Below are positions 1,382 through 46,069 of a DNA stretch of 64,000 nt, in pieces (within the stretch, counting starts at the first letter, position 1; each line of letters starts with the position of its first letter). The DNA lies in contig CM059436.1 of the NCBI GenBank assembly GCA_030390025.1, forward strand, positions 27,962,001 to 28,026,000, given 5' to 3'. Position numbers and translations under genes: made by a program. Below the pieces are notes generated by a model. It made no database searches. It was given only the letters and a program-made list of their open reading frames with translations, and was not told the DNA's origin. This DNA is from Squalus acanthias. Lineage: Eukaryota.

Positions 1382-1992
1382 GTCAGCTGTGGCTCAGTGG
1401 GTAGCACACTCGCCTTTGACTGAGAAGGTTGTGGGTTCAAGTCCCACTCCAGGGACTTGAGCATGTAAATCTAGACTGACACTCCAGTGCAGTGCTGAGG
1501 GAGCACTGCACTGTTGGAGGTGCTGTCTTTCGGATGAGAAGTTAAACCGAGGCCCCGTCTGCTCTTTCACAGTGGACATAAAAGATCCCATGGCACTATT
1601 TTGAAGAAGAGCAGGGGAGTTATCCCTGGTGTCCTGGCCAGTATTTATACCTCAACCAACATAACAAAAAAAACAGATTCGATAGCAAAATACTGCGGAT
1701 GCTGGAAATCTGAAATAACAACAGAAAATGCTGGAAAAACTCAGCAGGCCAGGCAGCATCCGTGGAGAGAGAAAGAGAGTTAACGTTTCAGGTCGATGAC
1801 CTTTCGTCAGATTAAACAGATTATCTGGTCATTATCACATTGCTGTTTGTGGGAGCTTGCTATGAGCAAATAAGCTGCAGTGTTTCCTACATTACAACAG
1901 TGATTACACTCCAAAAGTACTTCATTAGCTGTAAAGCGCTTTGAGACGTCGGTGGTCGTGAAAGGCGCTATATAAATGCAGGTCTTTCTTTC
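1382..1992 (+). mobile_element. tRNA-headed Deu-domain SINE (SacSINE1/AmnSINE-related) with L2-like tail; contains a nested insertion
   Basis: A box TGGCTCAGTGGG (1390-1401) and B box GGTTCAAGTCCC (1434-1445). Deu-like core AAAGATCCCATGGCACTATTTTGAAGAAGAGCAGGGG. Tail AAAGGCGCTATATAAATGCA followed by (CTTT)n, shared with the L2 3' ends in this window. Confidence 0.85.
1680..1813 (-). mobile_element. Short Penelope-like terminal-repeat element with hammerhead core, copy 1
   Basis: Flanked by the 9-bp duplication AAACAGATT (1671-1679, 1814-1822). The - strand reads CTGACGA-A-AGGTC-atc-GACCT-GAAAC-GTT-AACT. Confidence 0.75.
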
Positions 1993-4379
1993 ATCCGGTG
2001 TTTAAAAAAAGTATTCTGCCAAACGGTGGAAGACTTAATTTATCGATTTCTGTTTAGGTGTCTTCCACGCTTCTGATTCACGAGGTCTTCCTTACCCTGT
2101 GGGGGGAAGATCAGCATTGATTTTTATTCCACATTTGCCTCTCATTAAAACCAAACAAAATTATGCAAAACCAAAACACAAGAATTCGCTGCTCGTTTGA
2201 TTTTGAAATCTTCCTGACAAACAGCAGGTGGAGCTGCTGCTTTACTCCGTTCCCATGTTTGAATTTCAGGGAAGATGCAAGAAAGAGAAGTAAAGAAAAA
2301 TGAGCAACAAAAAGAGAGCTGGTGGAGAAAGGCCATCGATCGTGGTTTAGGCTACTCTGTGAAGCCGGATTATTAACGAGAAAATTACACAAACCGGCAA
2401 TGTCTTGGAATGAGAGCCAAAAATGCCATAAATACATGAAGTGATAAGAAGTCATATTTCCCTACGGATGTAAGTAACCAACTATGTATTATGCAAAGTA
2501 CCCGAACTCTAGTTAAATGGCTGCACTATTCACTAGCTTTGCGCTGCACTTTGCTTCACGGGTTAATGTGTACAAAACAATAAGGAATTGCAATATCGTG
2601 TTGTGTCTTAATGTAGAGTGACAGTTTTGGCACTGAATGCAAACTCACCGGAAAACATAGCACAATAATTACAATGCATATGTTTCTTCCGCTGCGATCG
2701 CGGATTACAAAATCGTTAACAAGCATACAGTAACACTTTTAGTAACGTTTTATTTCCCTCGAATTATTAACTAAATTGCCAACCAGAAATAAATTAAACT
2801 TACTTGTTTAAATGTATTCAACTTTTGGGATGGGTATCTTCATCGATAGCTAATCTCCTCCATTGCTGTATTAGGGAAATAAAGTACCAAGGAGTAAATA
2901 TGCTGTTAATTTACAGTTCAGAATAAATTCCCGGGCAGTCTGAAAACCAAACAAATGTCGTTAGCACTATTGTTCACTTTTGAAACCTCACTCCAAACTG
3001 GGAGATGTATCTTGCTTCCGAGCACGCAGCATCACCTGCACATCGTAATGTCATGAAATTGTTTTCTAATTGATTTTTGACATCATATTACTGTTATCAT
3101 TATTTAAAGAAAGCTGACGCCATAAAGGTAACGCCCGAAATGTCTAATTCAATTAAGATCAGAATCTCAAAACCCCAAACTCTAGGCAACGTAATACATT
3201 TCTCAGTTTCAGGAGAGTGGTAAGCAAATGGATGTGCACGATTCCACGCTGGCAATATCCCAGCAAACTATTGCGTCGGGACATTATATTAACCAGACAT
3301 TTGAAAACCTCAATACCAAACATGTGCATAAAGATAATCCACTAAGCAGAAAATACAGTTTAATTTGTTAACGCTTTAGAATGTGTGTGCATACTATATA
3401 TAATGCAAGTTATAGGTATAGCAGATGTATTTTATATTTAATATTCAATACATTTAGCATTTTTGATAACGTTTCAATTACATTTTTTTAATATTTTAAT
3501 TTTCTAGTGCAGAATCCCTACAGATATCTTATAATACAATGAAAAGTAATTTGGAATTTTCTTATTCTGATTCTAAAAAAGTTGGTTTTCTCATACTTGC
3601 CTAATATCTGCTTTTTCTAATTTCCCGTGCCCTGGATAATTACTGAAACTCACCTTTCTTGAGATAGTACCAGCTATCTATCTTAAATTAGTTTAGTTTT
3701 CTACCGTTCTTGACGCAACTCATGTAACCGAATAATGCTAGAAAACTTACGATATTTCATTAAACGTCCACGAATGCCACTTATGTTCATGAGGTAAAGT
3801 GTAAAATGTTCTAATGTGCTTCGGGCTGTGACCTACCTGTTCCGGTTCTAGGTTACCAGTCCATGTTTGGTCCAGAGATAGTGCTTTCCAAATGATAATC
3901 TGATTATCTTTCAGCGTTACCATTTTATGCAGGAGGTTCTGCAATTTTTTAGACTTTTAACACACGGTAATTTCAAATTCTGAATTATTTGCATTAACTA
4001 AACCCAGCCGCGGTTGGCTTTCCCTGGTTCCATTGTTAGGCATCTATTTCCCTTTGGGAGTAAGCATGAGCTCGCTCGAGCAGCTTCTATTAAACGATTC
4101 CACGTCAGACTGCCTCAACACTACATATCTTCATTTTCTGTGACTGGTCATTGATAAATACTTTTCTGAATAGTTCACTACTGTAACCTCTGCCCTGACT
4201 ATTCTCCCTTACTAACCGCAATACAAGACCCGTCCATTCGGACTCGCTTCTGCCTATTAATCGGAAATGAGGCAAATCGAACAAAGGCTAGGTAAAGTCT
4301 TGATCATATTAAATGTACTCTTTCTCTTTGGTGAAAAAAAGTTCAATGTTTAACCCAATCGGTAGGACTGGCATTCGTT

Positions 4380-4550
4380 CCAATAACAACTTGCATTTAT
4401 ATAGCGCCTTTAACATAGTAACACGTCCAAAGGAGCAAAGTCAGATAAACATTGACTCGGAAACAAAGGAGGAGATATTAGGACAGGTGAGCAAAAGCTT
4501 GGTCTAAGAGGTAGGTTTTAAGGAACATCTCAAAGGACGCGAGGTGGGGA
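4380..4550 (-). mobile_element. L2 LINE 3' end fragment
   Basis: ACAACTTGCATTTATATAGCGCCTTTAAC is the reverse complement of the L2 tail at ~14935-14965; the following sequence resembles 57380-57550. Confidence 0.75.
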
Positions 4551-7500
4551 TAGAATGAGGTGAATTATATTACAGATTCGAACAACTGGATAGCTTTAGA
4601 AAGTTAACTGTTTCGCACTCGGCTATTATTATTGCAAGATCACCTGGCCTAACTAGTTTCACTGATTTCCACCCGTCCCGCAAAAGATTTCCCCTCTATT
4701 CTCCCCCTACACGCGCCTGTGTTATTTCAAACACGGGGAGGGGAAAGCACCGTAGTGACAACATGGCACGGAGCACATGGTACATCCTGCTCCGGAATGG
4801 GAATCATCCCAATCTCTGAGACAGATGCGCATCCGCTAAGAAGCTCGAATTTACAAAACACGTACAAATCTATTGAATTGAGATCTTTCGCTGTTTTATT
4901 TTTATTGGCGCAGTTGGGTGAAGACCAAAATGTAAAAACTGAAAAAAATGTGGGTATATATATATATATATGCATATCTTTCAACTTTGGACTTACGTGA
5001 TGGCTGCAGCCATAAATTGGAAGGACAATCGCTTCTACATACCCAGTAGGAAATAGTTTCCTTCAACCTTACTCACACAAATGACCACTCAAATCTCAAA
5101 CACTGACAGAGGAGACTTCTCCCCCGTCAATAGCAATACTTCGTTTTTTTTAAGTATTTATTAAATAGTACGTGGGCAAGAGTCAGTGTTTTCTCCTGAA
5201 CACTAATTTTGTTAACACTAATCAGTAGATGGCATTCCAAAATGAACACGTGGGGGAAAGATTGACTTCCACATAAACTTCCTATTTCTTCCATTTGCTT
5301 ACAAACCATTGTGCAGTGGTGAACACTTGATTTACTTGATGATTCGTGCACAGGTCACTAGAAGTGATAGATCTGGGAGTTGTGTTACCTGAAGTGTCTA
5401 AAGCCTTGAGGGACGGCTCCCATCGTTTTTTCAATGGGGTGCTGTCACACAAGGGATTGGCATTGTGTCCCACCTCGCACACGCCATCTTGAATGTACCA
5501 GGACTATGTGATATCAACATGGATCCCATGTGGGGATTCTATGCAGATCTATTTCAGACTGTTGAGTACACAGGGTGCTTTCTGTCTGCTTCCGGTAAAG
5601 GAAAGTTTAAATAACAGTGCGGTATCCGACATCAGGAATATTCTATTAGAATCTCAGCTGCAAATGACATTTAAAAATAACTTTAAAAATCTCTAACCCT
5701 GGTTTTATTTGTCAAAATAATTTCCATTGCTATTGAATTTAGGTATGCATCCACTTAGTTACAGACCCATGTATCAAATTAACGATATCGCATTAAATAA
5801 AACTAGATCAGAAACAAAATTCATTGAAAATAGTAGTTTGCTGCGCACTTAAATACCCTTCCACATGGGAAGAGTTGATTTTAAAGAACAAGCGGCTGTA
5901 AACATGCGTTTAACTTGCTCTTTTGAGAATGCTTTTGAATAACTGTAGGCGATGGGTTTTGCCTGGTGTGGGATTGTAATTGGTGTGGGATTTTAAGCAT
6001 ATATGGGTGTTTCTTGATGGCTGATGTGCGATCACAATTTCAGTACCTTCTAAAAAAATATTTTTTTTTTTAATTGGGAAACCTGGGAGAAGAGCCAAGT
6101 CTCATATTCCAAGACACCGGTTGAAAGGGGTAAGACAGAAGATGAACTAAGTCAAAAAGTACTGGTCGCCTTTTGTAACACCTTTTGACCGATAATGTTA
6201 CGACCGCGTGAACTTTCAGAACATTCTTCAAAAATGTGGACTTGAGAGATCTGTCCTGGGAAGGGCATTGTGTGTTGGCGGAGAGTGTGCGCATGATCTC
6301 CAGATAACTCTGTCCAAGAATGGACCGACCAGCTTGAATCGACAGGCAGTGATTTGTTGCAAGTCCTTAAGCCCTTGTTAAACAAGCAAACACTTCAATG
6401 GACTGGTATGATGAGAGCATGGTTAATAACAATATTAACCTTAAAATCTACGTGCAGCTTTTTCTCATGATTTGTAATATAGTTAGTGTAAGTCTGGGCT
6501 TCTGAATGTTTCTCTTATGGCCAAAAATTCATCAGCAATTAGCTGAACAAGACCAGCGAAATCGGAAACATGAGAATTTAGACTATGGAATAAACACAGC
6601 GTTTGAACAAATAATAAAAACAATCGACGATGATATGCTCTGAGTCTATTCTGTTCACATTGTTATCTAAAGTGTCATTTGAAAAGTATTTTCCATTTGG
6701 AAATAGGAAAAAGGTGACATCACACTTGTTGGATCTGCTATTGAGCTTTGAGTGGCCAAAGAAAACAGCCCCCATTATAAATTAGGACTGCGCCATCCCA
6801 TTCCTTCTACAGCATATACACCACGTGAAATACTTTAGCTCGGGTCAGATAATGTCGACTCTGAGCCTTTTGTCCCGTTCTCCCATCACTCAGTCATATT
6901 CTTTATGAACCTAGCTAAATGAGTCTCAGCCATCCCAACAACCCCGCGTTATATAGTGCGCTGTGTTTTCTGCTGTGGCTCTGTATTTGTCATATCAGTT
7001 CCCAATTCCCCATGGTAATTAATGATACAAAAAAGTATGAACATTAAAATAATGTTCAAAGCCTCTACCTGACCGACCACCCACTTCTGCGAAAGCGATC
7101 CATGCTTTCACGGTTTTATGAAGCACAGAATAACGCTCCGAGCCACCCAGACACATATAAATACATATGGCAATGGCCGTTAAATGCTCATTTATATCGT
7201 TGAGGAAACTTGAATCGAGATTTGAAACTCCTGTTACCTGTCAGCGGTTTTGCCACGAAGCACCAAACACTTTTATTGTTGGTCCAGTTTCCAGCTCTTT
7301 GGAGTGAGCAGCTGAAAGTAATATGAAATCAACGTTTAGCGCGGCACTGGCAGGCCTCTCCCCCTCTGTACCAGATTGCATAGAGCCAAGTACATTATCT
7401 GTGCAACTGAGGTTCATTTGATGCAATCACATTGTCTCAACGGAAATGCTTGATATCGTGTTTGGGAAGCTGCCTCTCATGTAAGTTTGATGCCGTTCTC

Positions 7501-10500
7501 CATTATGTCCATTTCTGTAAAGTCACGTCTGCCCTGGGTAATGCAGTGGCCTTTCTGGCGCATAAAGCCGTGAAGAGGCAATCTAATGCACAAGTACAAT
7601 GGCAATATTTTTTTCGGGTTGTTCTGTAATAAATCACACCAGCTTCATTACATACTGGAAAAGACAGATGAAAAATGCACCGTGGGTCACTGGACCTTGT
7701 GACCCCCACACCCTACCCCCAGTTATATCGAAGTTCCACAGCGGCAGGGAGGTATGATAATAAATGCTAATTATTCCGGTCCCGATGATCAAAATACAAC
7801 GTTTTCTTTCGGTTTTGATTTATTATTGATACAGCAAATGTAAAAAGGCGCGAATATGTCCCGGTACAGCTATTTTTAAATGTCAATACTCTCTCTTGCT
7901 GTAACTGGTCAGAAATGGTTAGACATCACACAAAACTGTTGATTCTTCTGATGCGAAAAGGCAATAAATTTGGTCTGGATGGTGCCGCCAGGCTTGTTCT
8001 ATTATCTAAAGCCAGATAACTTTCCAGAACCCCAGCCATTAATGAAAAACATCGCACTTCGCACAAGGAAATAAATGCTTTTCATGTGAAACACAGCAAC
8101 GTTCCAATGAGCTAAAAGCTAAACTTTTTTCACCCGGTTTTAATTTGACAACGTTGTAATTCAATCGTTGAAAGTTGTTTCAATGTGTACTGTTGTGTTA
8201 TAACCGAGGGGCCTTGCAACACGAGAGATGGACGAATGGACTTACAATATGAGAAGTGAAATCTGTCATCACGGTCAGTCAGGTTGTCTCTAGGCAAGGC
8301 ACCTCTCCTCTCTCTTAGAGGTGCCTAGTTACAGCAAATAAACAGAACAGCGGCACTCTCTGCCGCTATATGCTTTCAGAAGATAACGAGGTCTTCCACT
8401 CCATTTTATACACGGTTCCAGTTTTTCAAATCTGTTACCGTCATATAAAAATCTCTCTCTCTCTCTCTCGCTGTCCCTCCCGGGATATTAACTTGGAAAC
8501 ACTGGGAAACCAGTACTAGTTCCAGACATTTCCCAGCAGGGACTTGCGAGTGTATACTTTTTTGACAGTTCCCTTAGTTCTAAAATTCATATTTTAACTG
8601 GTATTTGGAGGCCTTTACAGAGCTGATGTTAATTACACTGAAACATAACAATTCAAACTACAGTTACATATCAAATATCTTCCTCCCCTCCCCCGCAACA
8701 GACACCTCCAAGGTTACATGGCATTTATTTTAGTTGAACAGCACAGTGGGGGGTTTGGTGTAATATAATGGAGCTGTGTCTGTTCTCGCAGAGTACATGG
8801 AAAAAACACACAGAAACAACCAGTTACAACCGAACTGAACTCCATACAAGGACTCGATATTAAACATGCTTTAAATAATTACCAATAAAAAATATCTACA
8901 AATGAAAGGTTACTACAGCTCGCGGAGAACACGCAGGTCAAATGATTCCTGCGCTACATTCACACAGCGAGTTCACTGTGGTATTACCTCAGTTCCCCAG
9001 CTAGGGCAAATTGGTTCGAGGTTCATTAACTTGTTAAATTCATCCATTTACATTGCTTGTCCTCTGAGTGCTGAAAGTTTTCCGTTTTTAACGCACGCTC
9101 ACATTTTTTCGCATTTATCTGCGAGAATGATTTTTTTCAAATTTCTAGTTTTCAGTAAAGAAATAGGAAAGTGCACAGATCTAAAAAAAAGTTTATTTCT
9201 TTGGACTTGAATGCCTAATAGCTTTCAGAATGGTGTAACATGTAATTTTATTTTCAGTACAGGACTTCAGAGTGTTAACTACCCACAGCTTAAAAGATGC
9301 CTTTCGCTGCATTCACACAGGCGGCTCACTGCATGAAATTACTTTTTGTTTCCAGGCTAAGGCCGAATTGATTCCAAGTTGCAGAATTAGTGCATATAGA
9401 GTATGGTGCGATTTTTATTTTAAGTTCAAAATGTCGATGACAGAGCTAGATCTAGGGCACAAACAATCGCCTCGATTGTTCACCGAGGAGCCGATTGTAC
9501 CACCCTTCCTCGTTTGTGACACCTTTTCCCACGGGCACCTTTCACAGCAGCCCCAGAAGCCGCTTCTCTTTTGTCCATTTTCTGGCGAGTGTACAATGCG
9601 GAGGGTTAGAGTTACACGAGTTTGTCTGTAATGGATATTTGCCACTGAACCAACTGAATTCCTGGAGATCAGACAGCACTTACATAGCTCGTTCTACCTG
9701 TTTAGCTTGAATTGAAACAAATGAAAGTTTCCCCCCCCCCACCCCTCAGAGAGAACAGGCAGAATTCTTTGTTCTTGCCCGAAGTAGTGTTACAGTAGAA
9801 GTGACGACCTTTTCCAAGCGTGACTCAAGAGGTGACCTGATCTTTCTGGGAAAAGGAGAGCTTCAAAACGCGTTGACTGTGGGCACTCGAAAGTGCAAAT
9901 TCCAGACAAAAGGTTTCATAAAATGCCAGTCAGCCACATCAATATAAACAGAGAAGCCCAAAGTTATTCCAAATATTAGAATATCGCTTTGTTCACTTTA
10001 ATGCACACTTTAGTCCCAATGTCAGAGCGGTTGCCTTTGCAGATCTTTTTTTTTAATCGTCACTTTGCGCAAAAAAAACAAGCATGGGTGATTTAAGGTT
10101 TTACGTGGTCCGAGGAAAACACAGACGTGTATGTGAGTTTAGAAAACATTTGGAATAAAAGGGACTCGCTGCCATTGCCAGACCGCACGGGGCTGGAAAG
10201 GCTACTGAGACCACTTTTCAGGAACTTCTGCTGTGAGATTTAGTGAAAACTTTGTGACAGTGGTCGGTCCTTACGGACCAGAGAAAAGGTCACTTTCGAC
10301 AGGCGACCAAGAACCAAGAAGGCAACTTTGTCAATAAATATCTTGCTCTCCGGCGGAATTGAGTGAGTGCTGAGGGATTCGGTCTCCCTCAGAATTATAG
10401 TTGAACGTCATGTAACACCTGGATTTATGGTTCGCGTTCTTTACAAATAGTGACATATATGGAGATCATTGACACGATGGCTGATTTCAGACACGGAAAG

Positions 10501-31974: not shown

Positions 31975-32940
31975 ACTTTCTGTCTCTGAGTCAGAAGGTG
32001 ACGGGGTTCAAGCCCAACTCCAGATAGTCATGGCGAGTGGAGACCAGGGGCTCGATTTTGCCAGGCCCGAGGAGGCGGGAATGGAGGCGTGTGGGGTGTT
32101 AAAATTGCAAAAAATGGCGAGCGGGCCCGACCCCGCCTCCGAGCAATTTTCCCAAATGCGTGGTTTCTGATCCCATCTCCGTCCCGCCTCCAAGAGGCGG
32201 GATAGGCCCTTAAGGCCCTTAACAACCACTTAATTGCCTCTATAATCCCATTTTGAGAGGCCTTTCTGATTTTAACACTTTTCCGACGTGATGCACGCCT
32301 CCTCTGAAACACGACAGTGAAACCTGGTGGAAGCGCACTTGGATTGCTGACTATCAGCTGCAGCTCCACCATTAGGAAGGAGATTTGATCAATCATCATT
32401 CTGGGGGAACTTTTAGCAGTCATAACCATCAATCATCATATCATCATATCATATCATCTCCTCCTCCTCCTCCTCCTCCTCCTCCCTCTCACAGCAAAGG
32501 CCAAAAGCTTTCCAGTCTTTGCAGACTTTAAATGCAGCAACAATGATGACATCATCAGAGGCAACTTTCAGACTGCAAACACTAATTGGGTCATGGGTCC
32601 CCACATGCTGGAACTCAATTGCCCAATTAGGGGAAAATCGAATAATTGTCCCACATCCAATTGGAGTCGGGTGGCTAACACAAAAAGTGGATGACACGAC
32701 CCCAGCCCGCCCCAATGATAAAATCGAGCCCCAGAGCTCTGGTTTGGCCTCGAGTGAAATACTGGTGTCTGATGGGTGTGGGCGCCCACCCTGTCCTCCC
32801 ATGTCGGCTGGCAGAAAGATGGTCAGGTTGCGACCTGCCACGCTGGTAATCAGCATGTGAATCCTTTCACTACTTCACATTATTCTCCAAGGGAAGAGTA
32901 GGAGCTAGGGCAACAACCATCTGTAAACCTGTTAAAACGG
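31975..32940 (+). mobile_element. tRNA-headed SINE (LF-SINE-like), split by a MITE
   Basis: CTCTGAGTCAGAAGGT...GGTTCAAGCCCAACTCCAG head. After the MITE, GAGTGAAAT and CAGAAAGATGGT are shared with the - strand SINE at 38940-39275. Confidence 0.5.
32048..32731. mobile_element. Harbinger-type MITE with perfect 12-bp TIRs
   Basis: GGGCTCGATTTT (32048-32059) / AAAATCGAGCCC (32720-32731); 3-bp duplication CAG (32045-32047, 32732-32734); internal (ATATC)n and (CCT)n at 32430-32490. Confidence 0.88.
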
Positions 32941-42600: not shown

Positions 42601-42936
42601 GAACATTTATTTAGAATAAACCCAAACACTATTATTTATTTCAACCGTACAAAAAAGTCAATTTAATGACATACCGTCGACAGTATATTATTTCATTAGA
42701 TTTCTGTTAAATAGTTTTACCATCCGAATGACGTGCAAGACTGGTTAACAGTCTAATATAAAATATTGTTACCACTACAACAGAATAAAAGGCAAGATTT
42801 CTTTAATATGACAAAGGAGCTTACTTGAAGTGTTCTCTCGCATGAAAAAAATCGAACCCGAGAAGCTCTCAAAACGTACTAATAAAGCCTGTCAAACTCA
42901 CGTGTCGACATGTTAATCAACCACTGAAATCTTACT

Positions 42937-43095
42937 ACGATAGCAAAATCCCTACGGTCCCTGGCCTTAAATCTATTTGATTTCCGGCTCTTCCCAGTTC
43001 TGATGAAAGGTCTTCGACCTGAAACGTTAACTCTCTTTCTCTCTCCACGGATGCTGCCTGGCCTGCTGAGTTTTTCCAGCGTTTTCTGTTGTTAT
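42937..43095 (+). mobile_element. Short Penelope-like terminal-repeat element with hammerhead core, copy 2
   Basis: Flanked by the 14-bp duplication ACTGAAATCTTACT (42923-42936, 43096-43109). 42999-43095 differs from the reverse complement of copy 1 at only 3 positions. Confidence 0.8.
42996..43032 (+). ncRNA. Minimal type I hammerhead ribozyme motif
   Basis: Stem I AGTT/AACT; core CTGATGA (43000-43006); stem II AGGTC-ttc-GACCT; GAAA (43021-43024); loopless palindromic stem III ACGT; predicted cleavage after GUU (43028). Confidence 0.7.
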
Positions 43096-46069
43096 ACTGA
43101 AATCTTACTGCGTGTTTTAATCTTGATTTATGGGGTTACTTTAATTATTTGCATAATCTTAATTTGTGTCGTGTTAAAAAAAAATTGGTACAGACGAACG
43201 CTGGAAGAGACCACATTTATCTATGACATTTGCGCTGTATTGATTGGAGCGAGTACAGTTTTAGCGATCTGTGAGCTATATTTGTACGGTTGCTCTCTCT
43301 GACTCGCACACAATTAAAAGAAACCAAAATTAACAGAATATTAACCTCACTTGAATGGGTTCACGCAAACTAGTCCAAGTGGGGCGACATCCCCTGGTGC
43401 GATTTAGTAAATGATGTGGATTTAGTAAAGGCAAGGGAATACCAAAACCTCATGGCCCACCTGTAAACTTACCGCCCCCCCCCCCCCCACCCCCCAACCA
43501 AGAAACACAAGCCGTGCAACAGGGAGATTTGTTTTGGTTGTTGTAGGGGCACAATTTGGAAGCGCTCCTTTTCAAGCTGACTTTTTCATTTCTAAATCTT
43601 AAACCAAATAGTGGGCTATTTTCGAGGGACATGCGCAACTCAGCCTGAAGAGCACTTCAGTTGGTTGAGCTTGACAACAATGTCAAAGAGCACTGCATTT
43701 TTAAAGAAGCGAATCCGAGTCATGTAGCGCAGCCACGCGCCCCAAGGCGAGTATAAACTTCACAATGGGAATTGAGAAAATCCTAGCAAACGAGTAAAAA
43801 TCCAACTAAAAGGCGATTTTCCAAATAATTGTGTAAACAAATAACAGTGCAAACCTATAGGGGGCTCTGGCTGTTTGAGTTCATTTTCGAAAGTGGCTGA
43901 ATGTCAACTTGGACAGAAATTCTGCATCTCCAAATAAACGGTCTGCTTCCTTCCTATGCTGAAGATGTGTGATTAACAGTTAGACGTCCAGCCAGAGATT
44001 TTTCCTTCTTCTGTATCTTCCCCCAACCCCCTCGGTTTTACATAAACTTATTGCTGTAGCTTCACGTTACGTAGAGTATTGCAAATCATGATTCTGCTTG
44101 TATAAATCAGTGACCCTCACACACGCAACACATCGCTGTTGCTTTTAACTTGTGTGTGTCAGTTGTCAAGCGGACAATGCACCGACTTCTCTCTTTGTCC
44201 GCGGTGATGGTAAAATCAATGGAAGCCAACTCGTTATTAAATAATGCATGTTTCCCTCTCTAGTCCTTTTTAATTTGGCCCATGAAGTATAAATCAGAGG
44301 AGCTGTCTAACATTTGATTGACACCCTCATGCGTTATTAAATAACTTGGGAAAACTGGTTCTTCTGACTATTTATAACACCGTATTTCCTGTTAGTAGAT
44401 GGACAATACTCTATTTGAAATTACAGTAGGTTATCATATTGTTAATCAACACGTGAATAAATTATAGACTTTGATTATCTAGTATGTGGAAAGCAATATT
44501 TTTCATATGCAACCATTGTAATTAAACGTTTTACTTGCTTACAATGCATAATTGCTGAATTTTAATAGAAGCGTTGCTTCTGTGATAATATGTATTTTTA
44601 TGGCAGTCTCATTAAATTGATTAATCTAAACACTAGTTTATTAAAAATGCATTACCTCTCTCGGCAGCCTGTGTTCTACCAGGTTATTTCGGTCTAAAAT
44701 GGACAATAAATGCAATTCACGTCAAAGTATTAATGTTTTTAAAATACCTTTATGTACTATATTTAGATGCAACTACGCAAGAAAATGCCCCGAAGCACTT
44801 AAAAAAACTCAAAGCAAAATTAATCTCAATTATCTTGCATTTTGCTTCTATTTTATATATAATACTGATCCACATCATAATAAGATTAATGGAACGGGTA
44901 AATATATCAGACTGCTGGGAGAAAATATATTTAATATTCATTCATCGCTACTGTGCATTTACTTTTTAGATAAAGAAGAATATCTATATTAAGTATTTAT
45001 GTAAAAACTACAGTATATAATAAATTCTTCGACACAAAAAGTATTTTGTCTGTGGCGTAAAGCACGATTATTTTAAGGTAAATATTATTCCAAATTAGTC
45101 TAGGTATTAGCATCCAAGCAAATGCTCTGACATACTTCGCAAATCCTGTCAAAGATGGCGAGCGCGACTGCACTAATACAACTTCAACTCAAATTACTTC
45201 CGATTGAGCACGCACAATTAAACACGACTCGCTCTTAATATCAAGGCTCTTCACTTCCCTTTCCCCAAAATAAATACATCTTTCAAATTAAAATAAGAAA
45301 AAAGTTCAACAGAACTGAAAGTAAGAAACATCGCTGTAGTAGAGGATGAGGTAATTGAATATGTTTACTTAACCACAGAAACATTGTATATTTATGAATT
45401 TGTTGCTTCATTGCCCATGTTGCAATACAACACGGGAGTTGGAGTGTTCAGCAGTTAAAGAGTATATAAACATTAAAAACAGCAATACCTTCTACTGAAT
45501 CATAGCATGAGTGAACCAGTAAAGTAACCTAGGCTCGAGGCTACCATGCACGACGACGGTTAGTCTAATAAATGGCACCACTCTCGTCTGCTATTTTGAG
45601 GTAATTTTTATAAAGCGTATCCCGTATATTAGGTTACAGATATGTGATATATAGAGCAGTCGGTTTTCAAGTTGTAATATCCCTTTCAAGCCTGCTCATA
45701 ACCCACCCCCTTCTTATCTGTAACTACGTCACTGTAACCATTTCTTTTCTGTAACACGTTTTTTGTTTTATTGCAGTAGCCTATTTACTGATAAAAAAAT
45801 CGCCTCAGAAACAATTGGGCTACACTCCGATCATGACTGGTAACTGCGTGAACCTTAAAGTGATATAGCATTTCATAATAGACTCTGTAAAATTTAAACA
45901 GAATCGTGGTCATGGAGGATGCCTCGTGATTATTATACCATAACGTTGCTTTAGAACCGAAAGCAGAAAAGATCTATTTTTAACAATGCAAAGATAGTAT
46001 GCAATGACTTCCTGGGACTACGTTATGTCAAAACACCAAACTCGCATAATAGGCTTTCCGAGATGATAG

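What the first reader, a model, noticed from the sequence alone, without database searches (positions are those of the whole stretch)
42937..43109. Young TSD-flanked mini-retroelement carrying an intact minimal hammerhead ribozyme, 5 kb downstream of SIX2
Seen: AGTT-CTGATGA-A-AGGTC-ttc-GACCT-GAAAC-GTT-AACT (42996-43032) contains all hammerhead core nucleotides, a 5-bp stem II, a 4-bp stem I and a loopless palindromic stem III (ACGT). It sits in a 159-bp insert between perfect 14-bp duplications. Known: Penelope-like retroelements carry minimal type I hammerheads in their terminal repeats, and the short palindromic stem III is thought to require dimerisation. Inference: this is a recently mobile, non-autonomous, ribozyme-bearing element mobilised by a Penelope-type RT. 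No such RT is in this window. The class is known, but this family and its activity may be uncharacterised.
Basis: partly seen in the sequence, partly recalled or inferred. Interest (0 to 1): 0.7.

Follow-up and report, generated by a model that had tools for sequence, protein, structure and literature searches.

The report
Stub of intact Penelope jumping gene
This short insertion is a one-off, two-armed leftover of a very abundant jumping gene of a known class (Penelope-like), whose intact master copies lie elsewhere in the genome; it carries that class's usual miniature RNA motif, which is predicted to cut itself, so the piece is ordinary apart from what its ends suggest about how the class likely copies itself.

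Summary
In detail: a 159-bp insert, a perfect 14-bp duplication and a complete minimal hammerhead. The reading 'non-autonomous mini-element' does not hold for this copy. Insert bases 22-159 are 98-99% identical to the end repeat (pLTR) of an autonomous Penelope-like element with an intact 970-aa RT + GIY-YIG frame, present elsewhere as a tandem array. Bases 1-13 are that element's last 13 bases, inverted. All 21 two-armed insertions examined carry the full tail on one arm only. No relative starts where this copy starts (0 of 98). A 30-nt ribozyme motif has 26,204 exact matches. Shared variants inside the ribozyme fall only on three tolerant positions. Copies pile up at the ribozyme's first base (34 of 98) and none starts at the cut site, so the copied RNA was probably uncut. 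The class, tail and ribozyme are published, and this scan reported the same pattern before on other DNA. Cleavage and present activity were not tested.

The parts
42923..42936 (+). left target-site duplication, 14 bp
   Evidence: family median 14 bp
42937..42949 (-). 13-nt arm: the element's true 3' end (tail), inverted
   Evidence: reverse complement of the last 13 bases of L002, L003, L004 and L015; same build in L008 and L014
42950..42957 (.). 8-nt linker not matched to either arm
   Evidence: origin not determined
42958..43095 (+). 138-nt tail-less pLTR arm (element positions -174..-37, -1 = last base of the element)
   Evidence: 99.3% to L002 and L003; 97.8% to an intact unit
42967..42972 (+). 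TATA-like TTAAAT, 29 nt before the ribozyme's first base (inferred promoter part)
   Evidence: sequence; consensus recalled; function untested
42994..43000 (+). initiator-like CCAGTTC, A at 42996 = upper edge of the pile-up of copy 5' ends (inferred RNA start)
   Evidence: consensus recalled; function untested
42996..43032 (+). minimal type I hammerhead, predicted cut after 43028
   Evidence: architecture as in PMC4209133
43003..43095 (+). first 31 codons of the element's RT-endonuclease frame (ATG inside the ribozyme core, 26 nt before the cut)
   Evidence: tblastn 93.5% to residues 1-31 of P0002
43096..43109 (+). right target-site duplication, 14 bp
1680..1811 (-). second copy of the family: single arm from the ribozyme's start to the tail (about -134..-3), 9-nt flanking repeat

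Best explanation
The insert is a truncated, two-armed copy of the terminal repeat of an autonomous Penelope-like retroelement that has intact copies in this genome, and it was likely made when the element's RT-endonuclease nicked both target strands about 14 bp apart and primed reverse transcription from each nick at a different fixed site of the element RNA. Shown: the parent element, its intact 970-aa frame, the two fixed 3' end points (-1 and about -35), the one-tail-per-insertion rule, the duplication length and the ribozyme sequence. Inferred: one nick started at the tail end and gave only 13 nt, the other started about 36 nt further in and gave 138 nt, and the two cDNAs were joined head to head. 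The ribozyme is cargo of the repeat, kept under selection in the master lineages. The RNA copied here was uncut, since the copy runs through the predicted cut site. As a lone copy it would be a poor ribozyme, because helix III needs a second copy or protein help (from PMC4209133 and PMC11167929; not tested here).
For: Bases 22-159 match 14 other places at 90-99% that run upstream into an RT + GIY-YIG frame. Three head-to-tail 3.2-kb units on contig C4 each hold a stop-free frame, 970 aa from the ATG; two units compared are 99.9% identical. Pfam RVT_1 E=2.4e-5 and GIY-YIG E=6e-4, both under the curated cut-offs. DKG, YIDD, linker CX4CX2C and GIY-YIG/CCHH-type residues are present; 948 homologues at E<=0.001. 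3' ends of 98 arms: 37 at -1..-6, 60 at -28..-42, 0 between, 1 at -46. Two-armed insertions: 21 of 21 have the tail on exactly one arm, and the partner ends at -31..-42 in 20 of 21 (binomial p 6e-8 and 2e-6 if arms chose freely). Flanking repeats of 8 nt or more at 40 of 64 arms, median 14, against 5 of 4032 mismatched flank pairs. In 54 arms chosen by a motif outside the ribozyme, variants shared by many copies occur at only 3 of 37 ribozyme columns (N7, loop 2, position 17), all among 6 tolerant ones (p 0.003), and all three change the encoded codon. A purified anole PLE protein cuts and extends both strands and has two RT start sites that bound the tail (PMC11167929).
Against: No empty allele was seen, so the duplication is read from sequence alone. 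20 of 64 arms had no flanking repeat of 6 nt or more. The 8-nt linker is unexplained. The Pfam hits are below the curated thresholds. No double compensatory change was seen in the stems within this family: only G-U-preserving changes and scattered single or few-copy changes, several of them in core positions (G8 changed in 4 of 54, G16.2 in 3 of 54). The tolerant columns were named from recall, after seeing the table. 32 of 54 arms have ACG instead of ATG in the core, so the start-codon overlap is not fixed in the family. The anole study saw no difference in start site between the two strands in vitro, so the one-site-per-strand step is my inference from genomic ends. One partner arm (L105) begins exactly at the cut site.
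Confidence: 0.9

Rival explanations
1. The insert is a member of a defined non-autonomous, ribozyme-bearing mini-element (SINE- or retrozyme-like) that is transcribed as a unit and moved in trans by the Penelope RT.
For: It is short, non-coding and flanked by a duplication. A recurrent short class does exist in the family: 34 of 98 arms start at -143..-113, 17 of them at -138..-132, and the window's second copy is of that kind. 58 of 95 copies that run past the tail end only 55-153 nt into the frame, several as small tandem units.
Against: This copy starts at -174, shared by 0 of 98 arms and 0 of 28; its join has 2 genome-wide matches with different linkers. The short class mixes the same sequence variants as the long copies, and the small tandem units have different deletion joints and none at the cut site. 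L003, L004 and L005/L006 do begin near -174, but they came from a search seeded with the insert itself.
Confidence: 0.06
2. An older, longer insertion was cut down by deletion or recombination, leaving this remnant.
For: The 8-nt linker could be a repair scar; internal deletions occur in relatives (L015, L105).
Against: Both outer ends sit on the family's two fixed end points and the duplication is perfect; arms as short as 24-41 nt recur in other copies (L091, L129) and 12-13 nt ones in L008 and L014. Only the inner joint could have been shortened later.
Confidence: 0.04

Closest known systems
EN+ Penelope-like elements with inverted pLTR and 30-40 bp tail (Craig et al. 2021, PMC8557442; Arkhipova et al. 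2013, PMC3846280; passages read)
   Same: Single RT + C-terminal GIY-YIG frame, tandem units, 5'-truncated copies, inverted head-to-head arm, tail at one end only, target-site duplication.
   Different: Duplications here centre on 14 bp (8-10 bp in the rotifer examples read). In this copy the tail-bearing arm is only 13 nt, so the insert looks like a single sense unit.
PAc, Poseidon element of Anolis carolinensis (Frangieh et al. 2024, PMC11167929; parts 1-2 of 4 read)
   Same: Start codon inside the hammerhead with the cut 26 nt downstream; two RT start sites bounding the tail; uncut RNA as the main template.
   Different: This element has the linker zinc-finger-like motif of the Neptune/Nematis type, which Penelope/Poseidon elements lack; its end points lie about 95 and 129 nt after the ATG.
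Minimal hammerheads (min-HHR) of metazoan PLEs, including fish Xena, Poseidon and Neptune (Cervera and De la Pena 2014, PMC4209133; parts 1-2 of 4 read)
   Same: 4-bp helix I, extra base before helix II, G-C pair next to the core, palindromic 15.2-16.2 with no loop 3, mostly lone genomic copies.
   Different: Helix II is 5 bp; at least 26,204 near-identical copies against about 4,000-9,000 variable motifs reported for coelacanth and Xenopus (different counting methods). Sharks were not named in the parts read.
Non-LTR retrozymes of animals (search listing, and recall)
   Same: Short, non-coding, type I hammerhead.
   Different: Not a tandem ribozyme-to-ribozyme unit; ends are not at the cut site; the sequence is part of a coding element.

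Membership tests
EN+ Penelope-like element (parent) | one frame with RT followed by GIY-YIG endonuclease | tested here: met
   970-aa frame; Pfam hits below cut-off; motifs
EN+ Penelope-like element (parent) | tandem or partial-tandem units forming pLTRs | tested here: met
   three 3.2-kb units in tandem; 37 long copies that span the unit junction
EN+ Penelope-like element (parent) | optional 30-40 bp tail, inverted 5'-truncated arm | tested here: met
EN+ Penelope-like element (parent) | hammerhead in the pLTR | tested here: met
EN+ Penelope-like element (parent) | RT groups with PLE/telomerase RTs in a tree | not tested
   no named reference elements were at hand; the homologues carry no clade names
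Neptune clade | CX2-5CxxC linker between RT and endonuclease (shared with Nematis) | tested here: met
   CTRRRCNTC at residues 837-845; feature from PMC8557442
Neptune clade | placement with Neptune rather than Nematis in an RT tree | not tested
   no reference set; 'Neptune-type' is a lead only
Minimal type I hammerhead | all core nucleotides, helices I and II, palindromic 15.2-16.2 | tested here: met
Minimal type I hammerhead | core and stems more constrained than loop across copies | tested here: met
   3 of 3 shared variants at tolerant columns; no double compensatory change within the family
Minimal type I hammerhead | self-cleavage (as dimer or with protein) | not testable with these tools
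   unconstrained folds of monomer and dimer do not give the active fold
Non-autonomous mini-element / retrozyme | many copies with the same two ends and the same internal build | tested here: not met
   0 of 98 share the 5' end; 2 matches of the join, with different linkers
Non-autonomous mini-element / retrozyme | unit ends at the ribozyme cut site | tested here: not met
   0 of 98 arms and 0 of 95 junction copies start at -105..-102; one partner arm outside that set does (L105)

The most novel reading that the evidence does not exclude
The ends of thousands of copies record an undescribed asymmetric step of Penelope-like transposition: the enzyme uses its two RT start sites once each, one per nicked strand, and short copies are run-off cDNAs primed in the 5' repeat of an uncut RNA whose first base is the first base of the ribozyme. 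Long copies that cross a unit junction never stop there (0 of 34, against 34 of 98; Fisher p 8e-6), so they would come from a different, multimeric RNA or from a retrovirus-like strand transfer between repeats. An intact 970-aa Neptune-type element is at hand to test this.
Probability: 0.35. Interest if true: 0.55.

Novelty: new member of a known kind. Interest (0 to 1): 0.25.

Why it matters
As a locus it matters little: it is one of tens of thousands of stubs, and nothing here links it to control of the neighbouring SIX gene. The family is more useful. How Penelope-like elements integrate, and what their ribozyme does, are open questions with one in vitro system (PMC11167929). This genome offers intact, nearly identical tandem units of a different clade type and a large record of insertion ends that gives sharp predictions: one start site per strand, an RNA start at the ribozyme's first base, and uncut templates.

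Tried and rejected
Rfam: no match at gathering score in the window and only a chance microRNA hit near the insert, so Rfam does not vouch for the motif. Folding energies are no better than shuffles, and an unconstrained two-copy fold does not give the active dimer; neither counts for or against cleavage. RNA evidence: all 19 runs listed were assembled contigs, most only guessed to be RNA; laying 4 of them on an intact unit showed cover of the element but no start or end points, so expression and RNA ends stay open. Whether an empty allele exists at this site stays open. Rejected: RT stalling on the ribozyme's structure as the cause of the 5' pile-up, because long copies cross the same sequence without stopping (0 of 34). 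Rejected: a spliced template with a 3' splice site just before the ribozyme (as described for D. virilis Penelope in PMC4209133), because at least 11 short single-arm copies have the target duplication directly next to the start and no shared upstream exon. Rejected: copies made mainly from the cleaved 3' RNA product (0 of 98 at the cut site; 1 partner arm, in line with the background of about 0.1 end per base). Counts used a narrow duplicate filter that merged some distinct copies (92 arms, 84 junction copies); redid the end counts with a wider filter (98 and 95), and the duplication and two-arm tables rest on the 64 arms of the narrower set whose 5' end lay within 600 nt. Three of the 98 arms (L132, L134, L136) share flanks and are probably one segmental duplication. 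Paper searches for this family or for the one-site-per-strand rule each listed one paper; the one was irrelevant on reading passages and the other two were seen only as listings. Repbase and Dfam could not be searched, so the family may already be catalogued. No supplements were read; those of PMC4209133 and PMC11167929 may bear on shark motifs and on end mapping.

Full report
Observation. A loose core pattern is common by chance. A full descriptor gives 2 hits in the window against 0.05 per shuffle. Rfam does not detect the motif, and folding energy is uninformative. A SIX-family homeobox gene ends about 4.95 kb away on the minus strand; the name SIX2 is recalled, not tested.

Parent element. 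A genome search with the insert returned 14 other places, matching from base 22-25 onward at 90-99%. Several run upstream for more than 1.2 kb into a frame with RT and GIY-YIG motifs. A probe from that frame had 2366 first-look candidates, with the 40 scored at 98-100%. On contig C4 three 3.2-kb units stand head to tail, each with a stop-free frame of 970 aa from an ATG that lies inside the hammerhead core, 26 nt before the predicted cut. The same geometry is described for the anole element PAc (PMC11167929). The protein has DKG, YIDD, a CX4CX2C linker and GIY-YIG residues, which fits the Neptune/Nematis type (PMC8557442). The closest named homologue is a shark protein at 72% identity. Exact 30-32-nt motifs of the repeat have 26,204 and 21,049 matches, controls 0.

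Anatomy of this copy. Counting the element's last base as -1, bases 42958-43095 are -174..-37. Bases 42937-42949 are the reverse complement of -13..-1, and 8 bases between them match neither arm. To see whether this is typical I took the first 100 listed places of a motif that lies 3' of the cut site (first 15 Mb of contig C1; loci). Of 98 distinct arms, 37 end at -1..-6, 60 at -28..-42, none between, and one at -46. This is the known optional tail (PMC8557442, PMC3846280). Of 21 head-to-head insertions, all have the tail on exactly one arm, and the partner ends at -31..-42 in 20. Flanking repeats of 8 nt or more were found at 40 of 64 arms, median 14, against 5 of 4032 control pairs. The window copy is this two-armed build with a very short tail arm; L008, L014, L091 and L129 are similar. 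Its 5' end is not a family boundary: 0 of 98 and 0 of 28 arms start there, and the join has 2 matches in the genome, with different linkers.

The ribozyme. In 54 arms selected without regard to the ribozyme, variants shared by many copies fall on only three of its 37 columns: N7, one loop-2 base and position 17. All three change the encoded codon, while third codon positions in stems and core carry no such shared variant (G16.2 differs in 3 of 54), so the constraint looks like RNA structure rather than protein (p 0.003 for 3 of 3 among 6 tolerant columns; tolerant columns named from recall and after the fact). Scattered changes do hit the core, mostly at CpG sites, as expected after insertion. 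A second, unrelated repeat family in the fetched loci has the same core with different, still paired stems. Cleavage was not tested. Published minimal hammerheads cleave weakly and only as multimers (PMC4209133) or with protein (PMC11167929).

Mechanism. Shown: two fixed 3' end points, one tail per two-armed insertion, duplications near 14 bp, and copies that run through the cut site. Inferred: staggered nicks on both strands, each priming at one of two internal RT start sites on uncut RNA, with the two cDNAs joined head to head. The anole protein does nick and extend both strands and has two start sites, but it showed no strand preference in vitro, so the asymmetry is my inference. 5' ends pile up at -143..-113 (34 of 98; 17 at -138..-132), against 4 in -112..-84 and 12 in -250..-144, and none lies at the cut site. 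One partner arm outside that set does start at the cut site (L105). The upper edge of the pile-up coincides with an initiator-like sequence, with a TATA-like sequence 29 nt before it (consensus recalled; D. virilis Penelope has an internal promoter, PMC2377424 passages). Long copies that cross a unit junction never stop there (0 of 34), which argues against stalling on RNA structure and for an RNA 5' end. It leaves unexplained why no full-length copy begins at that base.

Comparison and novelty. Every structural feature is described for endonuclease-bearing Penelope-like elements. My paper searches found no description of this family or of the one-site-per-strand rule, but the library lacks most subscription papers, and Repbase and Dfam were not searchable. 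The scan's own notes, looked up after my analysis, hold 239 findings with these words in at least 21 genomes and 393 in this genome; several report the same fixed start and the long-plus-short pairing, and one reports arms starting at the cut site. They are unchecked leads, not support.

Verdict. The feature is real and explained: a one-off stub of an abundant autonomous Penelope-like element, a new member of a known kind. Interest 0.25, carried by the intact master copies and the end statistics, not by this locus.

Noticed in passing
window 1680-1811 (-): Second stub of the same family, running from the ribozyme's start to the tail, with a 9-nt flanking repeat; it sits inside another dispersed repeat.
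   Followed up: yes
L211/L212 (G000:C4, about 15.715-15.726 Mb): Three head-to-tail units of 3198-3199 bp, each with a stop-free 970-aa frame, preceded by a partial unit; a candidate source locus.
   Followed up: partly
L185, L186, L190, L191, L262, L274, L281, L282, L302, L304: Small tandem units of about 260-390 bp made of the repeat plus 55-153 nt of the frame's start, each with its own deletion joint; 58 of 95 junction-spanning copies end in that 55-153 nt zone, a third class of 3' ends that is unexplained.
   Followed up: partly
L015:110-200, L053, L083, L187, L202: A second repeat family with a minimal hammerhead: same core, different paired stems and a different palindrome at helix III; no copy found in the window.
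   Followed up: partly
L105: One inverted partner arm begins exactly at the predicted cut site, the only such case seen.
   Followed up: yes
window 32028-32874: GC-richer stretch with several overlapping open frames of 134-144 aa that look like a degraded coding sequence; not identified.
   Followed up: no
L100, L101, L103, L143, L160, L168, L178: In many short two-armed copies both arms end inside the ribozyme, often at its stems, which could supply the base pairing for the head-to-head joint.
   Followed up: no
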